Source: Escherichia coli
GTDB lineage: Bacteria; Pseudomonadota; Gammaproteobacteria; Enterobacterales; Enterobacteriaceae
NCBI RefSeq assembly: GCF_009931435.1
Contig: NZ_CP043414.1
Reading direction: 5' to 3' (one strand)
DNA length: 64,000 nt
Under the pieces are notes generated by a model. It saw only the letters and a list, made by a program, of their open reading frames with translations. It had not been told where the DNA came from and did no database searches. The translations under genes were made by a program, and so were the position numbers. Shown piece by piece: positions 3,861-16,857 of the stretch (positions are counted from its first letter, which is position 1; each line of letters starts with the position of its first letter).

Positions 3861-3983
3861 AGAGTGTACGCTTAACGATTGTTAATATTATAAATAGACT
3901 GAATGAATATCTTAACCTTATCAGACTGATGGGCTTCTTAACACCCTTATAAGTGTAAAGCCACGAAAACGGTTGCTGATTGC

Positions 3984-5168
3984 TTAAATTGCGGCTTCCT
4001 GACGATGAAAACCTCGCCACCAGACCAGTAAGTTAACCAGGGCAATCGTCGCGCCAGCCAGACAAACGCCAGCCCAACCGCCATGTTGCCAGGCTGAGGC
4101 TGAAATTAGCGAACCGGCGGCACCGCCAATAAAGTAGCTGGTCATGTAACCTGCAGTCAGGCGATTACGCGCATCAGGGTGTATTCGATAAATTACCGTC
4201 TGGTTAGTGATATGCACGCCCTGCACGGTGAGATCCAGCACCAGGATGCCGATAATCAAGGCCAGTACGGAAGTGTGACCAAACCAGATCGCCAGCCATG
4301 AAAGTAACAGCAGCAGCAGACCGAAAGTTGTGGTGTGGTGCGATTTGCCCTTATCGGCAAAACCGCCCGCCGGACGAGCGCCCAACGCTCCGGCAGCTCC
4401 CGCGAGTCCAAACAGACCAATTACGCCATCGCTGTAATTAAAAGGCGGAGCGGCGAGCAAAAAGGCCATTGAGGTCCAGAGAATGCTGAAGTTGGCAAAG
4501 GTCAGGCAGCCCAGCAACGCGCGGGTGCGCAGAATTTTATCGCTGATAAACATGCTGAAAACGGAACCAAGCAACTGTGGGTAGTTGAGGTGGGTTTCTG
4601 ATTTCATTTGTGGCAGACCACGCCATAATGCCAGCGCCATCAGTGCCATTAACACCGAGGCAACCCAAAAGACGGTGCGCCAGCCGCCGAGGTTTGCCAG
4701 CAACCCGGCAACGGTTCGTGCCAGCAAGATCCCCAACAGCAGCCCGCTCATAATGGTGCCGACCACTTTGCCGCGTTTGTCCGGTGAAGCCAGCGTCGCT
4801 GCCAGCGGAACCAGAATTTGTGCCACGACCGAGAATAAACCGGTTAATGCCGTACCGAGGATCATCATCGCCAGCGACTGACTGCTGGCGGTAATCAACA
4901 TACCGCCCGCTGCCAGTAAGGTCATCGAGACAATCAGGCGGCGGCGTTCAAACACATCACCGAGGGGAACAAGAAACAGCAGACCTGCGGCATAGCCCAA
5001 CTGCGCGGCGGTAACAATAAAGCCCGCCGAACTGGCGGAAAGGGAAAAGTTACGCGCGATGGTGTCGAGTAATGGCTGGGCGTAATAGTTACTGGCTACC
5101 GCCAGACCGGTGGCGATAGACATCAGCACGATCAGTGCCGGGCTAAGCTCATGATTAGGTTTAGTCAT
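3984..5168 (-). CDS. ygaY: MFS transporter YgaY (apparently intact here)
   Basis: 394 aa uninterrupted ORF with 12-TM style hydrophobic profile; position between ygaZ and proX. Confidence 0.75.
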   Translation of the reverse strand: MTKPNHELSPALIVLMSIATGLAVASNYYAQPLLDTIARNFSLSASSAGFIVTAAQLGYAAGLLFLVPLGDVFERRRLIVSMTLLAAGGMLITASSQSLAMMILGTALTGLFSVVAQILVPLAATLASPDKRGKVVGTIMSGLLLGILLARTVAGLLANLGGWRTVFWVASVLMALMALALWRGLPQMKSETHLNYPQLLGSVFSMFISDKILRTRALLGCLTFANFSILWTSMAFLLAAPPFNYSDGVIGLFGLAGAAGALGARPAGGFADKGKSHHTTTFGLLLLLLSWLAIWFGHTSVLALIIGILVLDLTVQGVHITNQTVIYRIHPDARNRLTAGYMTSYFIGGAAGSLISASAWQHGGWAGVCLAGATIALVNLLVWWRGFHRQEAAI

Positions 5169-9992: not shown

Positions 9993-12137
9993 TTAAAGTG
10001 CACAGGAGACGCAGCCTTCAATTTCAGTGCCTTCCAGCGCCATCTGACGCAGGCGGATGTAGTAGAGCGTTTTGATACCTTTGCGCCAGGCGTAAATCTG
10101 CGCTTTGTTGATATCGCGAGTGGTGGCGGTATCGGGGAAAAACAGTGTCAGCGACAGCCCCTGATCGACATGGCGAGTCGCTTCGGCGTAGGTGTCGATG
10201 ATCTTTTCTGCGCCGATTTCGTAAGCGTCCTGATACAGCGCCAGATTCTCGTTAGTCATAAATGGGGCAGGGTAGTAAACGCGTCCTGTTTTGCCTTCTT
10301 TGCGTATCTCTACTTTCGCCACAATCGGATGAATACTCGACGTGGCATGGTTGATATAAGAGATGGAGCCGGTTGGCGGCACTGCCTGGAGATTCTGGTT
10401 GTAAATGCCATAGCGCATCACGTCGTCGCGCAGTTGCGCCCACATTTCGCGGGTAGGTAACGTGATGCTGCTACGAGCAAACAACTCGCCAACTTTCGCC
10501 GTTTTCGGTTGCCAGTTACCTTGCAGATATTGGCTAAAATATTCACCGCTGGCATAGCGTGACTGTTTGAACCCGGCGAAGGTTTCACCGCGTTCGCGCG
10601 CCAGCAACATTGAGGTACGCAGCGCGTGCCAGGTGATGGTGTAGAAATAGAGATTGGTGAAATCCAGTGCTTCCGGCGAACCATAGGCGATGCCTTCTCG
10701 CGCCAGATAACCGTGTAAATTCATCTGCCCCAGACCGATAGCGTGTGAGGCGGCATTTCCGGCTTCGATGGACGGCACGCTGCGAATATGACTCATATCT
10801 GACACCGCAGTTAAACCGCGTACGGCGATCTCTACCGTGCGGGCAAAATCGGGGGAATCCATGGTGTGGGCAATATTCAACGAACCTAAATTGCAGGAAA
10901 TATCATGGCCTGTGCGGGCATAGTCGAGATTCTCGTCATACTCTGAGGCGCTGTTAACCTGCAAAATTTCTGAGCAGAGATTGCTCATATTTATACGCCC
11001 GGCAATAGGGTTAGCACGGTTAACCGTGTCTTCATACATGATGTAGGGATAGCCGGACTCAAACTGGATCTCCGCCAGTCGCTGGAAGAAATCACGGGCG
11101 TTGATGTATTTTTTGCGGATTCGCTCATCGGCAACCAGTTCGTCATAGTGTTCACTGATGGCGATATCGGCAAACGGCTTGCCATAAACACGCTCAACGT
11201 CATAGGGCGAAAACAGTGCCATCTGCGCATTCTCTTTTGCCAGATGGAAGGTGATATCCGGGATAACCACGCCCAGCGACAGTGTTTTAATGCGGATTTT
11301 CTCGTCGGCATTTTCCCGCTTTGTATCGAGAAAACGCAGTATATCGGGATGATGGGCATGTAAATAGACTGCGCCAGCACCCTGACGCGCGCCGAGCTGG
11401 TTGGCATAGGAAAATGCGTCTTCCAGCATTTTCATCACCGGAATCACGCCAGAAGATTGATTTTCAATACGTTTAATTGGCGCGCCCGCTTCCCGCAGAT
11501 TCGACAGCAAAAATGCCACGCCGCCGCCGCGTTTCGACAGTTGTAGTGCGGAATTTACCGCCCGGCCAATCGACTCCATATTGTCTTCAATACGCAGCAA
11601 AAAACAGGAAACCAGTTCGCCGCGCTGCTGCTTACCACAGTTGAGGAATGTCGGTGTTGCAGGCTGAAAGCGTCCTGACAGCATCTCATCGGTCAGTTGC
11701 GTCGCCAGTGTTTTATCGCCTTGTGCCAGCGTCAGCGCCACCATCGTGACTCGATCGGCAAAATCTTCCAGATAACGCTTACCGTCGAATGTCTTCAACG
11801 TATAGCTGGTGTAAAACTTCCATGCTCCGAGGAATGTCTGAAAACGAAAACCGCTGGCGTGTGCGTGGGCAAATAGCGTAATGACAAATTCGCGAGAGTA
11901 ACGGTTGAGGACGCTTTCATCATAGTAACCCTCGTTGACCAGCCAGTTCAGGCGCTGCTGTTGGCTGCTGAAGGTCACGCTATTCGGGCGTACATGCGTC
12001 GCCAAAAATGCATCTACTGCCTGGCGGTCTTTATCGAACTGAATGCGACCCGCGTTATCGTAAATATTAAGCATCGCATTCAGAGCGTGGTAATCCATCG
12101 TTTCCTGCGTCAGGCGTTCTGCGGTTGTCGTTGCCAA
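9993..12137 (-). CDS. nrdE: Class Ib ribonucleotide reductase alpha subunit NrdE
   Basis: 714 aa ending in ...CVSCAL. Confidence 0.92.
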
Positions 12138-12520
12138 AATTCGGTTACTCCTTTACGAACGTTTTCGATATCGCTTTGCGTACCCATGAGTTCAAAGCGG
12201 TACAGCCACGGCACGCCGCATTTCCGGGCAATCACATCTCCGGCGCGGCCATACGCCTCACCAAAGTTGCGATTACCCGAAGCAATAACGCCGCGAAGCA
12301 ACGCCCGGTTGTGCTCGTCGTTTAAAAAGCGAATGACCTGCCGTGGCACCGCGCCAGCCGTACCGCCGCCGCCGTAAGAGGGCACGATCAGGATGTAAGG
12401 CTCGTCTACCTGAATCCGTTCCCGCTCATTGAGCGGGATGCGCACCGCGGGCAGTCCTAAACGTTCGATAAAACGCTGCGTATTTTCGGAGCTGCTGGAA
12501 AAGTAGACGAGTTGGCTCAT
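12110..12520 (-). CDS. nrdI: Flavodoxin-like protein NrdI
   Basis: 136 aa, overlaps nrdE start and nrdH end. Confidence 0.9.
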
Positions 12521-12762
12521 GCACTGGCCGCGTGTGGCGCTGGATGCAGACGATTGATCATGTCCGGGCGGAAACCAGACCAGCTAAGATCTCCTGCAAT
12601 CACTACCGGCAACTGACGAAAGCCCTGAGCACGTAACGCTTCCGCCGCTTCAGGAACGCGATCGACATTAATCATTTCAAAATCAAAGCCCCGGTTTTCC
12701 ATCGCCCGTTTGGTGGCGTGGCACTGAACGCAATCGTTACGAGTGTAAATAGTAATGCGCAT
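12517..12762 (-). CDS. nrdH: Glutaredoxin-like protein NrdH
   Basis: 81 aa with CVQC redox motif. Confidence 0.9.
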
Positions 12763-12970
12763 GATTCGTATTTCCGTTTAAAATGAAGATACGGCGCGAT
12801 GATACGCGTCGGGTTGTCTCTCTGTTGATACAGAGATACTAGATGTAGTTGAAAAAAGATTCAACCATACAAGATATGGGAATTTTAGATTGATTACACC
12901 ACCGATGAATGGCTCAACGGGGTAGGGGATTTTGTGTTTTTTTGCCGGGCGATTGCCCGGCATCAGGAAG

Positions 12971-13402
12971 TTACATCCGCATGGAAACGGCCAGGCGGTT
13001 AAAGCAATTCATCAGCCCGATGGCAAATGTTAAGTCGCTGATTTCTGCTGCGCTGAAATGCTCAAGCAAAGGCTGATAAACGTCGTCTTCCGCATGGGTT
13101 CGGGCAATATCGGTCACCGATTCCGCCCATGCCAGCGCCGCCCGCTCGCGATCGTCAAAATGATGGCTTACGCGCCAGCCTGCCAGGGCATCCAGCTTAT
13201 GCTGCGGCACACCGGATTTGCGTAATGCTTTGCTGTGCATCTCCAGACAAAATGCGCAACCATTGATTTGCGAGACGCGCAAATAAACTAACTCCATCAG
13301 CGTAGTTTCCAGCGTGCTATTTTCCAGCGCCGTTTTGGCCTGCACCAGCGCGTTATATACCGTTGGGCTAAGTTCGTAGTAAGGCTGACGTAATGTAGTC
13401 AT
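12971..13402 (-). CDS. Carboxymuconolactone decarboxylase (AhpD-like) family protein
   Basis: 143 aa with CAFCLEMH (CxxC...H) motif typical of the CMD/AhpD family. Confidence 0.65.
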   Translation of the reverse strand: MTTLRQPYYELSPTVYNALVQAKTALENSTLETTLMELVYLRVSQINGCAFCLEMHSKALRKSGVPQHKLDALAGWRVSHHFDDRERAALAWAESVTDIARTHAEDDVYQPLLEHFSAAEISDLTFAIGLMNCFNRLAVSMRM

Positions 13403-13489
13403 ACAGTTTCTCCTCTTATTAACGCCCGCAATGTAGCACTATAATGGACTGCTAAAGAGAGCCATAAATTACCTAAAAAAGCAGACCAT

Positions 13490-14824
13490 ATGCCGCGCTA
13501 TCAGGATATCGCCCGTCAGTTAAAAACGGCTATTGAGCAAGGGGAACTGAAACCCGGCGCAAGGCTACCTTCAAGTCGTACCTGGTCGCAGGAACTGGGG
13601 GTGTCTCGATCCACTGTCGAAAATGCGTATGCTGAGCTGGTGGCGCAAGGATGGCTGATCAGGCGGGGACAGGCTGGCACATTTGTCAGTGAGCAGATAT
13701 ATCCGCAACAATCTACTGTACAAGTTGTGTCTTTTGCCGGTGAAAGTCAGCAACCGTTGCCATTTCAAATGGGATTACCCGCACTCGATCTCTTTCCGCG
13801 AGAGCTGTGGGCGCGGGTGATGGGGCGTCGCCTTCGTACCCAGACGCGCTTTGATTTGGCGTTAGGCGATGTCTGCGGTGAGGCGGCGTTGCGTGAGGCA
13901 ATAGTTGATTACTTACGCGTTTCACGTGGGATTGATTGTCAGCCAGAGCAGGTCTTTATCACTCACGGTTATGCGGCCTCAATGGCTTTAATTCTGCACG
14001 CGCTGGCGAAACCGGGAAACGGGATGTGGATGGAAGATCCCGGCTTTCCACTGATTCGCCCGATTGTCACTCGCCACGGTGTGGAAATTTTGCCTGTGCC
14101 GGTTGATGACAACGGACTGGATATCACAAGCGGAATACAAAATTATCCTGATGCGTGTTTTGCCCTGATAACACCAGCACACCAAAGCCCGCTGGGTGTG
14201 GCGCTCTCTTTAGCGCGCAGGCATCAGATACTGGAATGGGCAGAGCGTAGTCAGGCATGGATTATTGAAGATGATTATGACAGTGAGTTTCGCTATCACG
14301 GTAAGCCGTTACCGGCGTTAAAAAGTCTCGATGCACCGCAGCGGGTAATTTATGCCGGAACATTCAGCAAAGCACTATTTCCTGCATTGCGCTGTGCGTG
14401 GCTGGTGGTGCCGGTGAAGCAAATTGCACAATTCCGCCACCAGGCGTCACTGGCTCCATGTGCGGTACCTGTTCTATGGCAGAACACACTGGCAGACTTT
14501 CTTCGCGAGGGGCATTTCTGGCGGCATCTGAAGAAAATGCGTCAGCATTATGCTCAACGTCGGCAATGGATTGAGCAAGCGTTGACGCAGCAGGGATTTC
14601 AGGTTGTGCCGCAGAAAGGTGGTATCCAGATGGTGATCAGAATGATGGGCGATGATATTGCCCATGCGCGTAAAGCCAATGCTGCAGGCCTTGCGGTGCA
14701 GGCACTTAGCGACTGGCGTATCCGCTCAAGTGGGGAAGGTGGATTACTTCTCTCGTTTACCAATATCGTTAACGAAGGTATGGCGCGACAGGTAGCACAA
14801 CAATTACGTAAAGCCTTAAGCTAA
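13490..14824 (+). CDS. MocR-type (GntR HTH plus aminotransferase-like domain) transcriptional regulator
   Basis: 444 aa; N-terminal GntR-like HTH (SRTWSQELGVSRSTVENAYAEL), large C-terminal PLP-enzyme-like domain; divergent from the CMD gene. Confidence 0.75.
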   Translation: MPRYQDIARQLKTAIEQGELKPGARLPSSRTWSQELGVSRSTVENAYAELVAQGWLIRRGQAGTFVSEQIYPQQSTVQVVSFAGESQQPLPFQMGLPALDLFPRELWARVMGRRLRTQTRFDLALGDVCGEAALREAIVDYLRVSRGIDCQPEQVFITHGYAASMALILHALAKPGNGMWMEDPGFPLIRPIVTRHGVEILPVPVDDNGLDITSGIQNYPDACFALITPAHQSPLGVALSLARRHQILEWAERSQAWIIEDDYDSEFRYHGKPLPALKSLDAPQRVIYAGTFSKALFPALRCAWLVVPVKQIAQFRHQASLAPCAVPVLWQNTLADFLREGHFWRHLKKMRQHYAQRRQWIEQALTQQGFQVVPQKGGIQMVIRMMGDDIAHARKANAAGLAVQALSDWRIRSSGEGGLLLSFTNIVNEGMARQVAQQLRKALS

Positions 14825-14879
14825 AAAACCCCGAAATCAGGTTCCGGGGTCAAGACGCGTATTTATTATCATTGTTGCA

Positions 14880-15209
14880 CTACGATTTGCGCATGCTTAA
14901 CAGTGCGCCGATAAAAATACCAACCGCAGCTGCTGTACCCACGCTACACCAGGGTCTTTCACGAACAAAAGAATCCGCGCAGCCAACGGCATCGCGCGCG
15001 GCTTGCTGAACGCGAGTACGACCATGCATTCGCGCTCTGGTTTCTTTCAGTAGAGCCTGCGCTTTACTACGAGCGGCTTCGGCTTCCCCTTTGGCGTCGC
15101 TGCCCCAGGACTTCAATACAGATTCGAGGCTGTCAGCTAATTGATTGACATCATTCTGGATATCCTGCACGCCATCATCAACGTCGTTGCGGTTCGGTCG
15201 GTTAAACAT
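14880..15209 (-). CDS. ygaM: ElaB/YqjD-family membrane-anchored protein YgaM
   Basis: ORF 14880..15221; C-terminal TM anchor; start assumed at MFNRPNRND. Confidence 0.8.
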   Translation of the reverse strand: MFNRPNRNDVDDGVQDIQNDVNQLADSLESVLKSWGSDAKGEAEAARSKAQALLKETRARMHGRTRVQQAARDAVGCADSFVRERPWCSVGTAAAVGIFIGALLSMRKS

Positions 15210-15360
15210 ATGATCCCCCATTAGAATTCGATGTAATTTTCAGTGTAGACCATAATTTTCTTAACTGAGGTTCATCGCGGCTTTATGGACTTTTCTGAAA
15301 GCGTTGTGAATGCGCAATCAGGTAAGGTAGGCCCGCGGTTGATAATAACGAGGATCAAAT

Positions 15361-15705
15361 ATGTATTTACGACCAGACGAGGTGGCGCGCGTACTTGAAA
15401 AAGTCGGTTTTACTGTCGATGTGGTAACTCAGAAAGCGTATGGTTACCGCCGTGGGGAAAATTATGTCTATGTTAATCGCGAAGCGCGAATGGGACGTAC
15501 CGCTCTGGTAATTCATCCAACATTAAAAGAACGCAGTTCAACACTGGCTGAACCCGCTTCCGATATTAAAACGTGCGACCATTACCAGCAATTTCCGCTC
15601 TATTTAGCGGGTGAACGTCATGAGCATTACGGTATCCCACATGGCTTTAGTTCGCGTGTTGCGCTTGAACGTTATTTGAATGGTTTATTTGGCGAAGCCA
15701 GTTAA
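15361..15705 (+). CDS. ygaC: Uncharacterized protein YgaC
   Basis: 114 aa, [17 protein letters not shown]... Confidence 0.85.
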
Positions 15706-15741
15706 AGACGCGACTGGCGATGCCAGTCGCGAAAAGAAGGG

Positions 15742-16191
15742 TCAGGCTTTTACCTGCTGGTAACGGCTGACTTTAAACAGTCGGCGGCAATAATCGAGGA
15801 AGTAGCCATAAACCGCCCCCATCAACATCGAAACAACGATGTTTGAACTGACCGCAGCCATAATCTGATGCCAGTCTGCGCCCACCACTAACAAGATCGC
15901 CACATACACCGGTGACTGGAACGTCACATACGCCAGGATATCCGCCAGATTTTTTACCCAGCCCGACGGACTAACTTTGCGTGCCGCGCGCATAAACAGA
16001 TCGCGGTACATACCGTATGGCCATGCAATTAAGATGTTCACCGGAATCGCTACCAATCTGGAATAAAGAGACTGTTCGAAGCTCATTCCGGAGAGGAAAA
16101 CTTCAATACACATGTTCACGACAGAACAGTAAACAACCATCGCGAACGTATCTGCAACTGCATGACGCAAGCGTGACTGCGGTGAGAACAT
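15742..16191 (-). CDS. alaE: L-alanine exporter AlaE
   Basis: 149 aa membrane protein [18 protein letters not shown]... Confidence 0.9.
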
Positions 16192-16857
16192 GCTAATGCT
16201 CCTTAATAAAAGCGTAATGGGACGTTAATAGAGATGAAAGCAGTGGATCTCATTGCCATCTGCATTTTCGCATAGCGTATATCGCTGGCTATGACTAATC
16301 AATTAGTGAAAAATTTTTATTTAATCTGTTTTTGTAGATAAAATATTCCGTAGCGGCGCGTTTTTTGTACATTGTGGATTTTTACATGCTGATATGATTT
16401 ATTTTTAATTAAATCAATTAGATATGGGCGTATCTTTATTTTCACTAATGAAAGTTTGGGGGTGAGGTAACGCTATAAGCGTAGAGAATTCGGTGTATGC
16501 AGTGACTGGGTCATTTTCAGCATTTTTTATGCCAGACAATGTACATTAACAGCAGAAAGCACCAGTGAGTGATGTTTATTTTTATTCGTATATATTGCAT
16601 TTTTATTCGATTTGGTTTTATCAGGCTTGCGGAATTAGCGAGCAGAGAGCGCCGCTCTGTTCACCAATAACCGAAATTACTCATCAAATTGGCTAATATA
16701 TAATCTTGAAATTATTCTGAGAGTTTCAGAAAATAACAGCTGAAATAATCTCGTGCAGGACTGTAAATAGATTAAATTTTGTGGAAATATAATAAGTGAT
16801 CGCTTACACTACGCGACGAAATACTTTTTGTTTTGGCGTTAAAAGGTTTCCTTTATT

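What the first reader, a model, noticed from the sequence alone, without database searches (positions are those of the whole stretch)
12971..14824. Divergent CMD-family gene and MocR-type regulator inserted between nrdH and ygaM
As far as I recall, K-12 has ygaM directly next to nrdH. Here a 143 aa AhpD/CMD-like protein and a 444 aa GntR-aminotransferase-fusion regulator sit in between, arranged as a typical regulator-target divergon. This looks like a small strain-variable metabolic or stress module within the core region.
Basis: partly seen in the sequence, partly recalled or inferred. Interest (0 to 1): 0.4.

Follow-up and report, generated by a model that had tools for sequence, protein, structure and literature searches.

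The report
Ancestral gene pair lost in K-12
A PLP-type (MocR) transcription regulator and the small AhpD-like thiol protein it is predicted to control lie between nrdH and ygaM because they are ancestral to the enterobacteria. K-12 and about three quarters of sequenced E. coli lost them in one old 1.9-kb deletion, so this is an ordinary, already catalogued but untested module and not an insertion.

Summary
A 143-aa CMD/AhpD-like gene (12971-13402, minus strand) and a 444-aa GntR+aminotransferase (MocR-type) regulator (13490-14824, plus strand) sit back to back between nrdH and ygaM. K-12-like genomes have only a 247-bp spacer there.

The interpretation needs its direction reversed. The order nrdE-nrdI-nrdH-CMD<>MocR-ygaM-ygaC-alaE is kept in E. 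albertii, E. whittamii, Citrobacter, Salmonella, Klebsiella, Raoultella, Buttiauxella, Cedecea and others. The pair is therefore ancestral.

Among 5426 complete E. coli genomes, 1387 carry the pair and 4032 share one identical deletion junction.

Both genes are under purifying selection (dN/dS 0.03-0.16). The 87-bp spacer holds overlapping divergent -10 elements and three ATGGnCTnn boxes. The boxes have invariant 22/24-bp spacing in 58/58 loci, the commonest MocR operator layout and the one known for PdxR.

The CMD protein is a PA0269 homologue with the Glu/Cys-x-x-Cys/His relay intact. The regulator-target link is already listed in a 2016 comparative-genomics study (regulog Spro_3719, including STM2803). 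I found no experiment on it.

NCBI's newer "pdxR" label is not supported by gene context. Verdict: real, ordinary, already known, low interest.

The parts
12971..13402 (-). CMD/AhpD-like gene, 143 aa. Predicted catalytic relay: Glu37 (13292-13294), Cys49 (13256-13258), Cys52 (13247-13249), His56 (13235-13237). Phe51 replaces Tyr50 of PA0269.
   Evidence: ORF. PF02627. TIGR00778 ahpD_dom above its cut-off. PDB PA0269 2ijc/2o4d/7xw1 at E 1e-31 over the full length. Residue codons verified. dN/dS 0.03-0.11 among Escherichia.
12944..12961 (.). GC-rich hairpin GCCGGGC-GATT-GCCCGGC, 10 nt beyond the CMD stop codon. On the CMD strand it is followed by an A-run, not a U-run, so it is not a canonical terminator. 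It is absent from K-12-type alleles.
   Evidence: Sequence. Not reported by the terminator scan. Lies inside the segment missing in K-12.
13403..13489 (.). 87-bp divergent control region. It contains the Shine-Dalgarno of CMD (GAGGAG, complement of 13410-13415) and overlapping -10 elements in ACTATAAT (13438-13445). TATAAT at 13440-13445 faces the regulator gene; TATAGT, the complement of 13438-13443, faces CMD.
   Evidence: Sequence. Column conservation over 58 enterobacterial loci. The 13434-13489 stretch is 84% identical to the window in 55 non-Escherichia loci, against 55% for the rest of the spacer and 42% for regulator third-codon positions. The promoter assignment is my reading; the simple consensus scan did not call it.
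13444..13452 (+). Box 1, ATGGACTGC. It is the inverted partner of box 3 and overlaps the regulator-side -10 and start region.
   Evidence: Present in 58/58 loci at fixed spacing. It co-varies with box 3 in four Kluyvera-type loci (ATGGTCTTA / TAAGACCAT).
13457..13465 (-). Box 2, ATGGCTCTC on the minus strand. It is a direct repeat of box 3 and lies where a -35 element for the CMD promoter would be.
   Evidence: 58/58 loci; the span from box 1 start to box 2 end is always 22 bp.
13481..13489 (-). Box 3, ATGGTCTGC on the minus strand. It is preceded by a conserved A-tract (13475-13480) and abuts the regulator's ATG.
   Evidence: 58/58 loci; the distance from box 2 end to box 3 end is always 24 bp. 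Column conservation 0.9-1.0.
13490..14824 (+). MocR-type regulator, 444 aa: GntR winged helix (aa 4-66), aminotransferase-like domain (about aa 100-436), and the PLP-binding lysine Lys294 (14369-14371) in the motif TFSKAL.
   Evidence: ORF. Pfam. NCBIfam. Aligns end to end with B. clausii PdxR 7pq9 (E 3e-63) and B. subtilis GabR 4n0b (E 6e-57), with the FSK lysine aligned. Codon verified. dN/dS 0.06-0.16.
14827..14851 (-). ygaM terminator hairpin. Its T-run overlaps the regulator's stop codon. It is retained in K-12-type alleles and marks the right edge of the deletion.
   Evidence: Terminator scan. Junction alignments.
12938..14822 (.). Segment missing from K-12-type alleles (about 1.87-1.89 kb; edges uncertain by about 5 bp on the left and 15 bp on the right). 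In its place K-12 has 22 bp, TTGTGATTCACCAGGCAAAAAG, of unclear origin.
   Evidence: Alignments of the window with three pair-less genomes. 4032 genomes match a 101-bp probe across this junction.
13489..14077 (.). Segment missing in a second, smaller deletion allele (589 bp, between two CCAT microhomologies). This allele removes the regulator's start codon, wHTH and linker but keeps CMD and the operator.
   Evidence: L004 compared with L003. 111 of the 1387 pair-carrying genomes cover less than 80% of the pair, and the examples show about 69% coverage.
12867..12916 (.). Left-flank context: the distal NrdR box of nrdHIEF (12867-12882, ATACAAGATATGGGAA) and a roughly 35-bp patch. Both differ sharply between pair-carrying and K-12-type alleles.
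   Evidence: NrdR probe sequence in PMC12176259 mapped onto the loci. Alignments.

Best explanation
This is an ancestral enterobacterial two-gene unit. A MocR-type (GntR wHTH + PLP-binding aminotransferase-like) transcription factor is transcribed divergently from the gene it controls, a small AhpD-like Cys-x-x-Cys thiol oxidoreductase of the PA0269 type.

Shown here:
- The unit occupies the same nrdH...ygaM slot across the family.
- It is under purifying selection.
- About 74% of complete E. coli genomes, K-12 included, lack it through one shared ~1.9-kb deletion.

Inferred by analogy with PdxR and GabR:
- A regulator dimer reads a 46-bp operator of three ATGGnCTnn boxes, two direct and one inverted, with fixed 22/24-bp spacing and an A-tract.
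- This operator lies over two overlapping back-to-back promoters.
- Binding to the outer inverted pair (boxes 1+3) would shut both promoters.
- A ligand-dependent shift to the direct pair (boxes 2+3, over the CMD -35 position and within the regulator's own leader) would switch CMD on while keeping the regulator autorepressed.
- The ligand would react with or replace PLP at Lys294.
- The CMD protein then reduces a peroxide or another oxidised or electrophilic substrate through Cys49/Cys52.

The ligand, the sign of regulation and the true substrate are all unknown.
For: Gene identities.

Ancestry: about 50 of the 80 loci found with the regulator show nrdE-nrdI-nrdH-CMD(-)/MocR(+)-ygaM-ygaC-alaE. 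They include E. albertii, E. whittamii, Escherichia sp. E1V33, Citrobacter spp., S. enterica diarizonae, Klebsiella, Raoultella, Yokenella, Buttiauxella, Cedecea and Pseudescherichia.

Single deletion: three pair-less genomes share the same junction. 4032 genomes match the junction probe, and 4032 + 1387 = 5419 of 5426.

No sign of mobility: GC content is 0.49-0.55, like the flanks. Only short chance repeats were found. No copy is on a plasmid.

Selection: dN/dS is 0.03-0.16.

Operator: three boxes with invariant spacing in 58/58 loci. The region is 84% conserved, against 42% at synonymous positions. The arms co-vary in Kluyvera-type loci.

Precedent: the '-> -> <-' layout is the commonest MocR motif structure, 32% of regulons (PMC5320631). 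B. clausii PdxR uses two direct repeats plus one inverted repeat within a 48-bp A/T-tract site and switches between them with PLP (PMC10450172).

Functional link: more distant relatives of the regulator (45-48% identity) in Achromobacter, Bordetella, Rhizobium and Burkholderiaceae also sit next to a CMD homologue, in other orientations. The published regulog 'Spro_3719 - Enterobacteriales' lists CKO_04020, KPN_03002, STM2803 and others with COG2128 as the target. The group 'PA0268' lists P. aeruginosa PA0268 with COG2128.

Chemistry: PA0269 shows weak, cysteine-dependent H2O2 reduction (PMC3141380). Glu37, Cys49, Cys52 and His56 are kept here.
Against: Nothing about regulation or chemistry has been tested in any enterobacterium that I could find. 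In Salmonella, STM2804 is described as a gene of no known function and was used as a marker insertion site.

The promoter assignment is by eye; the consensus scan did not report it. PA0269's peroxidase rate is very low, so peroxide may not be the real substrate. Tyr50 of the relay is Phe here.

The regulator is repeatedly inactivated in E. coli: the whole-unit deletion, a 589-bp deletion in about 111 genomes, and Gln232stop in the window's nearest relative. The unit is therefore dispensable in many settings. NCBI's HMM names the regulator PdxR, which would imply a different role.
Confidence: 0.8

Rival explanations
1. One reading: the pair was inserted into this strain's lineage by horizontal transfer, between two genes that were originally adjacent.
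For: K-12-like genomes do have nrdH next to ygaM. Alleles of the pair within E. coli are unusually diverged and mosaic: regulator dS is 0.40 between the window and O157, against 0.06 between the window and B2, and the O157 allele is close to Escherichia sp. E1V33. This shows that recombination has moved alleles between lineages.
Against: The same slot and orientation occur in about 50 other enterobacterial species. There is no GC shift, no flanking repeats or integrase, and no plasmid copy. All pair-less genomes share one junction carrying 22 bp of filler, which is the signature of a single deletion.
Confidence: 0.03
2. The regulator is a true PdxR, as NCBI's current pipeline names it. It would sense PLP and control vitamin B6 metabolism, with the CMD gene as a side target or none at all.
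For: NCBIfam NF052282 (PdxR, equivalog) scores 409 bits against a cut-off of 320. The closest solved structure is B. clausii PdxR. The operator layout is the same as that of PdxR. PLP-metabolism regulons are the commonest class of MocR regulons.
Against: No pdxS, pdxT, pdxK or other B6 gene is adjacent in any of the 58 enterobacterial loci; the divergent partner is the CMD gene in all 58. The 2016 regulon study places the orthologues (STM2803, CKO_04020, KPN_03002) in a separate group of unassigned function whose target is COG2128. It places the enterobacterial B6 regulators elsewhere: PdxR2 = STM2436 with pdxK, and PdxW. The same protein also scores 361 bits on the rhizopine MocR model and matches GabR almost as well as PdxR in the PDB (197 against 217 bits), so the HMM hit looks like subfamily-level similarity.
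Confidence: 0.12
3. In E. coli the unit is a decaying relic with no current function, on its way to loss in every lineage.
For: There are three independent ways of losing the regulator or the whole unit within the species. Insertion in the Salmonella orthologue STM2804 was used as a marker site. No literature links the unit to any phenotype.
Against: Both reading frames are intact in the window. dN/dS is 0.03-0.16 within Escherichia. The operator is identical or nearly so across Escherichia alleles whose coding sequences differ by up to 10%. The unit is retained across the family.
Confidence: 0.15

Closest known systems
Predicted regulog 'Spro_3719 - Enterobacteriales' of Suvorova & Rodionov 2016 (PMC5320631 supplement): S. 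Typhimurium STM2803, C. koseri CKO_04020, K. pneumoniae KPN_03002, Serratia Spro_3719, each with a COG2128 target
   Same: Same regulator orthologous group, same single target family (COG2128 = this CMD/AhpD-like protein), and same divergent arrangement. A Citrobacter koseri regulator protein (P0061) is 76% identical to the window's. Klebsiella pneumoniae and a Salmonella subspecies appear in my own scan, where both show the window's synteny.
   Different: E. coli was not listed there because only K-12, which lacks the pair, was analysed. That work gave no function, and nothing in it is experimental.
Pseudomonas aeruginosa PA0268-PA0269 (PA0269 structures 2O4D/2IJC/7XW1; PMC3141380)
   Same: PA0269 aligns with the window protein over its full length (E 1e-31) with the Glu/Cys/Cys/His relay conserved. 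A MocR regulator, PA0268, is predicted to control it.
   Different: The regulator belongs to a different orthologous group. A cupin (COG1917) is co-regulated in Pseudomonas. The relay has Tyr50 where the window protein has Phe51.
Bacillus clausii PdxR-pdxST (7PQ9; PMC10450172)
   Same: Same protein architecture. The regulator and target genes are divergent. The operator has two direct repeats and one inverted repeat within about 48 bp, with A/T tracts, lying over both promoters.
   Different: The alignment to PdxR is full-length but distant (E 3e-63, 217 bits; no percent identity was computed). The target is PLP synthase, not an AhpD-like gene. Enterobacteria lack pdxST (established knowledge). 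The effector here is unknown.
Mycobacterium tuberculosis AhpD
   Same: CMD-fold protein with a Cys-x-x-Cys plus His/Glu proton relay, which defines the AhpD core domain (TIGR00778 hit above cut-off; PMC3141380).
   Different: The full-length AhpD model scores far below its cut-off (30 against 192 bits). The relay sits in N-terminal rather than C-terminal helices. No ahpC is adjacent. The reductant partner is unknown.
Bacillus subtilis GabR-gabTD
   Same: MocR regulator divergent from its target, with autorepression and ligand-dependent activation through an external aldimine at the PLP lysine. It aligns end to end with the window regulator (E 6e-57).
   Different: The GabR operator has two direct repeats only. 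The effector is GABA and the targets are GABA catabolic genes.

Membership tests
MocR subfamily of GntR transcription factors | N-terminal GntR-type winged helix-turn-helix | tested here: met
   PF00392, E 1.4e-17, residues 4-66.
MocR subfamily of GntR transcription factors | C-terminal fold-type-I aminotransferase-like domain with the PLP-binding lysine | tested here: met
   PF00155, E 4e-26. Lys294 in TFSKAL aligns with the FSK lysine of PdxR and GabR.
MocR subfamily of GntR transcription factors | Operator of 2-4 direct or inverted repeat boxes near its own gene | tested here: met
   Three ATGGnCTnn boxes with fixed 22/24-bp spacing in 58/58 loci. The layout '-> -> <-' is the commonest in the family.
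MocR subfamily of GntR transcription factors | Binds PLP, and ligand binding changes DNA binding | not testable with these tools
   Needs purified protein.
PdxR (NCBIfam NF052282; pyridoxine biosynthesis regulator) | Sequence score above the curated cut-off | tested here: met
   409 bits against 320. The protein also scores 361 bits on the rhizopine MocR model (cut-off 650).
PdxR (NCBIfam NF052282; pyridoxine biosynthesis regulator) | Controls or adjoins vitamin B6 genes (pdxST, pdxK, pdxU, pdxO) | tested here: not met
   The neighbours are nrdH, the CMD gene and ygaM in the enterobacterial loci. The published regulon for the orthologues contains only COG2128 and is not in the PdxR, PdxW or PdxQ groups.
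PdxR (NCBIfam NF052282; pyridoxine biosynthesis regulator) | PLP acts as the effector (anti-activator) | not testable with these tools
   Biochemical test needed.
AhpD-like proteins within the CMD family (PF02627 / TIGR00778) | CMD fold and AhpD core-domain signature | tested here: met
   PF02627 at 72.8 bits (cut-off 23). TIGR00778 at 52.5 bits (cut-off 27.8). PA0269 structures at E 1e-31.
AhpD-like proteins within the CMD family (PF02627 / TIGR00778) | Cys-x-x-Cys with the His and Glu of the proton relay | tested here: met
   Glu37, Cys49, Cys52 and His56 are present; the fifth relay residue is Phe51 instead of Tyr or His.
AhpD-like proteins within the CMD family (PF02627 / TIGR00778) | Thiol-dependent peroxidase activity, or re-reduction of AhpC | not testable with these tools
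   Only the homologue PA0269 was assayed, and its activity was weak. No ahpC is adjacent here.
True gamma-carboxymuconolactone decarboxylase (PcaC) | pca pathway context and the gamma-CMD active-site motifs, which lack Cys-x-x-Cys | tested here: not met
   No pca genes in the neighbourhood. The protein has the Cys-x-x-Cys motif that PMC3141380 reports as absent from gamma-CMD enzymes.
Genomic island or horizontally inserted cassette | Composition shift, flanking repeats, integrase or tRNA anchor, patchy and non-syntenic distribution | tested here: not met
   GC content matches the flanks. Only chance repeats were found. There is no mobility gene. The pair is syntenic in about 50 species.

The most novel reading that the evidence does not exclude
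The unit may be a PLP-based sensor of a redox or electrophile signal rather than a vitamin B6 regulator. Its loss in the K-12-type lineage came as one event together with a rewritten distal NrdR box of the neighbouring nrdHIEF operon. The two E. coli allele classes would then differ both in an AhpD-like defence and in how the oxidative-stress and iron-limitation ribonucleotide reductase is repressed. The natural regulator-null alleles (the 589-bp deletion and Gln232stop) would be ready-made tests of the sign of regulation.
Probability: 0.12. Interest if true: 0.45.

Novelty: already known. Interest (0 to 1): 0.15.

Why it matters
It matters little beyond bookkeeping, but four points are useful.

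1. It corrects a natural K-12-centred error. Genes missing from K-12 are often ancestral losses, not strain-specific gains.
2. It flags a probable over-annotation now spreading in RefSeq, where 'pdxR' is applied to a regulator whose only predicted target is an AhpD-like gene.
3. It gives a precise operator and promoter model, and natural knock-out alleles, for a widespread MocR-AhpD-like pairing (53 predicted regulons) that I could not find tested in any organism.
4. The deletion allele is linked to a different distal NrdR box. Anyone extrapolating nrdHIEF regulation from K-12 to B2 or O157 strains should know this.

Tried and rejected
- **More operator sites.** I searched the window for ATGGNCT. 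It gave 27 matches against 28 expected, so the bare half-site is uninformative.
- **ygaM-ygaC spacer.** A pair of half-sites there (15247-15253 and 15285-15291) looked like a second operator. The first half is not conserved in other genera, and the spacer is identical in K-12-type genomes that lack the regulator. I rejected it as a target.
- **RNA families.** An Rfam scan of 12000-16800 at E <= 1 found nothing.
- **Repeats.** The repeat search gave only short chance matches and no flanking repeats.
- **Promoter scan.** The consensus scan did not call the spacer promoters, so their assignment rests on my reading and on conservation.
- **Literature.** Searches were empty or irrelevant for: MocR with carboxymuconolactone decarboxylase; PA0268; STM2803/STM2804; the other regulog locus tags; and the Sakai tags ECs3534/ECs3535, inferred from ygaM = ECs3533. 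The only hit used STM2804 as a marker insertion site.
- **MpaR.** This P. aeruginosa MocR regulator was checked as a possible relative. It is PA4132-linked and unrelated.
- **Poor assembly.** Genome P276M looked like a fourth allele but is an error-rich assembly with frameshifts in every gene. I ignored it.
- **Faulty regex.** A first composite regex for the three boxes had wrong spacing and matched almost nothing. It was replaced by an explicit distance count.
- **Not run.** I did not predict structures, because close solved homologues exist for both proteins.
Full report
**What is there.** The window is E. coli chromosome. Between nrdH (12517-12762, minus strand) and ygaM (14880-15209, minus strand) lie two intact reading frames at exactly the coordinates given: 12971-13402 (minus, 143 aa) and 13490-14824 (plus, 444 aa). 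Pfam assigns the first to the carboxymuconolactone decarboxylase family (PF02627). It assigns the second a GntR DNA-binding domain plus a class I/II aminotransferase domain, which is the MocR architecture. A K-12-like genome has only a 247-bp spacer between nrdH and ygaM.

**How variable it is.** Of 5426 complete E. coli genomes, 5421 match the flanks. 1387 carry the pair, always on the chromosome, once, at this site. A 101-bp probe across the K-12 junction matches 4032 genomes at full length. Since 4032 + 1387 = 5419, the locus is essentially two-state. Three pair-less genomes from different sources share the same junction, including 22 bp of filler sequence. Carriers include B2 strains (IHE3034, LF82, APEC O2:K1; about 97% identical to the window) and O157:H7 (about 91%). 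Only 14 genomes carry the window's own allele at 99% identity or more. The collection is biased towards clinical strains, so 26% is not a population frequency.

**Direction of the change.** I scanned one genome per bacterial species with an alignment of the regulator and located the window's neighbouring proteins in the 80 loci returned. The order nrdE-nrdI-nrdH-CMD(-)/MocR(+)-ygaM-ygaC-alaE recurs widely. It is found in E. albertii, E. whittamii, Escherichia sp. E1V33, many Citrobacter, S. enterica subsp. diarizonae, Klebsiella, Raoultella, Yokenella, Buttiauxella, Cedecea, Pseudescherichia and several unnamed Enterobacteriaceae. GC content across the pair equals that of the flanks. There are no flanking repeats or mobility genes. 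The pair is therefore ancestral at this site, and the K-12 state is a single ~1.9-kb deletion (about 12938-14822). It removed the CMD gene with its 3' hairpin, the control region and the regulator, and stopped at the ygaM terminator. 'Inserted' is the wrong word.

**Are the genes alive?** Pairwise dN/dS among Escherichia alleles is 0.03-0.11 for the CMD gene and 0.06-0.16 for the regulator, which indicates long-term purifying selection. Even so, the regulator is lost repeatedly within E. coli.
- About 111 carriers have a 589-bp deletion between two CCAT microhomologies (window 13489-14077). It removes the start codon and DNA-binding domain but leaves the CMD gene and operator.
- The window's nearest relative (99.9% identical, identical CMD gene) has Gln232stop in the regulator.
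- Two Franconibacter-type species keep the regulator but have lost the CMD gene.

The unit is thus conserved but dispensable in many settings.

**The control region.** The 87-bp spacer (13403-13489) has four conserved blocks over 58 enterobacterial loci:
- the CMD ribosome-binding site (complement of 13410-13415);
- TAGCACTATAATGGaCTg (13434-13451);
- GAGAGCCATA (13456-13466);
- AAAAAgCAGACCAT (13476-13489).

The 13434-13489 stretch is 84% identical to the window in 55 non-Escherichia loci. The rest of the spacer is 55% identical, and regulator third-codon positions are 42% identical.

Within the stretch are three boxes: ATGGACTGC (13444-13452, plus strand), ATGGCTCTC (13457-13465, minus strand) and ATGGTCTGC (13481-13489, minus strand). 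All 58 loci have all three, with invariant 22-bp and 24-bp spacing. In four Kluyvera-type loci the outer boxes change together, to ATGGTCTTA and TAAGACCAT, which preserves the palindrome.

Read on the minus strand the layout is two direct repeats followed by an inverted one. That is the commonest structure among predicted MocR operators. It is also the one shown experimentally for B. clausii PdxR, where PLP shifts binding from the direct to the inverted pair on a 48-bp, A/T-tract-containing site.

ACTATAAT (13438-13445) gives a TATAAT facing the regulator gene and a TATAGT facing the CMD gene. Box 1 overlaps these, box 2 lies at the CMD -35 position, and box 3 abuts the regulator's ATG. The promoter reading is mine; the simple consensus scan did not call it.

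From this anatomy I infer autorepression plus ligand-dependent control of the CMD gene, by analogy with PdxR and GabR. The sign of regulation and the ligand are not known.

**The two proteins.** The CMD protein aligns over its full length with P. aeruginosa PA0269 (E 1e-31). That protein is an AhpD-like hexameric helical protein with weak H2O2-reducing activity that thiol alkylation abolishes (PMC3141380). Glu37, Cys49, Cys52 and His56 of the proposed proton relay are present, and Tyr50 of PA0269 is Phe51 here. The protein passes only the AhpD core-domain model and falls far below the cut-offs for true AhpD or the YciW-related families. It has the Cys-x-x-Cys motif that real gamma-carboxymuconolactone decarboxylases lack.

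The regulator aligns end to end with B. clausii PdxR (E 3e-63) and B. subtilis GabR (E 6e-57), and the PLP lysine (Lys294) is conserved.

**What is already known.** Suvorova and Rodionov (2016, PMC5320631) reconstructed MocR regulons in about 250 genomes. Their supplement lists a regulog 'Spro_3719 - Enterobacteriales'. It contains S. Typhimurium STM2803, C. koseri CKO_04020, K. pneumoniae KPN_03002 and others, each with COG2128 (this CMD/AhpD-like family) as the only target. It also lists a group 'PA0268' that pairs P. aeruginosa PA0268 with COG2128. COG2128 appears in 53 MocR regulons in all.

In relatives within the same group the co-regulated genes are AcpD-type (COG1182), Bcp peroxiredoxin (COG1225), COG4232, cupin (COG1917) and acetyltransferase (PF00583) families. 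This points to redox or electrophile defence rather than vitamin B6.

My scan independently shows that more distant relatives of the regulator (45-48% identity) in Achromobacter, Bordetella, Rhizobium and Burkholderiaceae also adjoin a CMD homologue, in different orientations. I found no experimental work on any member. STM2804 is described as a gene of no known function and was used as a marker insertion site.

**The 'pdxR' label.** Recent RefSeq records name the regulator 'MocR-like pyridoxine biosynthesis transcription factor PdxR', because it scores 409 bits on NF052282 against a cut-off of 320. The defining context is missing, however. No B6 gene is adjacent in any locus. The 2016 study puts the orthologues outside its PdxR, PdxW and PdxQ groups and assigns the enterobacterial B6 regulators to other proteins. 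I treat the label as probable over-annotation and leave about 12% for it being right.

**Side observations.**
- **Mosaic alleles.** The window's regulator is close to the B2 allele (dS 0.06), but its CMD gene is not (dS 0.30). The O157 regulator and ygaM are as far from the window as another species would be (dS 0.33-0.40), yet close to Escherichia sp. E1V33 (dS about 0.1). They share with it a ~94-bp REP-like insert after the regulator.
- **NrdR box.** The left edge of the variable region starts inside the distal NrdR box of nrdHIEF. K-12-type alleles have ACACAATATATAGCAA, the sequence used in published NrdR binding assays (PMC12176259). The window, other carriers, other Escherichia species, Citrobacter and Salmonella have A[T/C]ACAAGATATGGGAA, followed by a ~35-bp patch that is only about 40% identical to K-12. 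The deletion allele is therefore linked to a changed nrdHIEF operator. I could not explain the origin of that patch.

**Verdict.** The feature is real and correctly described, but it is an ancestral, annotated and computationally catalogued two-gene unit. Its absence from K-12 is a deletion. It is of low general interest. It is useful mainly as a correction of direction, an annotation caveat, and a well-defined operator model for an untested MocR-AhpD-like pairing.

Noticed in passing
window 12867-12916 (compare L001 1968-2016): The distal NrdR box of nrdHIEF is ATACAAGATATGGGAA here, and ACACAAGATATGGG/TAA in B2 and O157. All deletion alleles have ACACAATATATAGCAA, the sequence used in published NrdR binding assays. 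The next ~35 bp are only about 40% identical between the two allele classes. The window-type box is the one shared with E. albertii, E. whittamii, Citrobacter and Salmonella. The origin of the K-12 patch is unexplained.
   Followed up: partly
window 13489-14077; L004 2581-3336: About 111 E. coli genomes carry a 589-bp deletion between two CCAT microhomologies. It removes the regulator's start codon, DNA-binding domain and linker but keeps the CMD gene and all three operator boxes. This is a natural regulator-null allele.
   Followed up: yes
L088 3531-4865 (strain R32_14_1F); window 14183: The window's closest relative (99.9% identical over the pair, identical CMD gene) has a C-to-T change that turns Gln232 of the regulator into a stop codon. 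The window copy is intact.
   Followed up: yes
window 12971-15209 compared with L002, L003, L005: Alleles are mosaic. The window's regulator resembles the B2 allele (dS 0.06) but its CMD gene does not (dS 0.30). The O157:H7 regulator and ygaM are at species-level distance from the window (dS 0.33-0.40) yet close to Escherichia sp. E1V33 (dS about 0.1), while O157's nrdH and ygaC are identical to K-12's.
   Followed up: partly
L002 about 3930-4070 and L005 about 4595-4745 (no counterpart in the window, between 14851 and 14852): O157:H7 and Escherichia sp. E1V33 have about 94 extra bases between the regulator and ygaM, with a degenerate REP-like sequence (CCCTGATGCGCTATGTTTTTCAGGCCTGTAGGCGGACAAGGCG).
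   Followed up: no
RefSeq records under hits H2, H4, H5 and L003: Newer NCBI annotation names the regulator 'pdxR, MocR-like pyridoxine biosynthesis transcription factor', while older records say 'PLP-dependent aminotransferase family protein'. The name follows from an HMM score and is not supported by gene context.
   Followed up: yes
window 15247-15253 and 15285-15291 (ygaM-ygaC spacer): Two operator-like half-sites (AGACCAT and ATGGACT) occur in outward-facing order. The first is not conserved in other genera, and the spacer is identical in genomes without the regulator. The block TTTATGGACTTTTCTGAAAGCG (15282-15303) is itself strongly conserved across genera for an unknown reason.
   Followed up: partly
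L044 and L051 (Franconibacter helveticus, 'Enterobacter' pulveris); L011, L014-L023 (Citrobacter freundii complex): Two species keep the regulator but have lost the CMD gene, with only 340 bp between nrdH and the regulator. Many Citrobacter freundii-complex species lack ygaM after the regulator.
   Followed up: no
window 14880-15221: The mechanical ORF for ygaM starts four codons upstream (113 aa, MGDHMFNR...) of the start annotated in RefSeq (109 aa).
   Followed up: no
L085 (strain P276M): This 'complete' genome has frameshifts or truncations in nrdE, nrdI, nrdH, ygaM, alaE and stpA within 4 kb. This looks like uncorrected long-read errors rather than biology.
   Followed up: no
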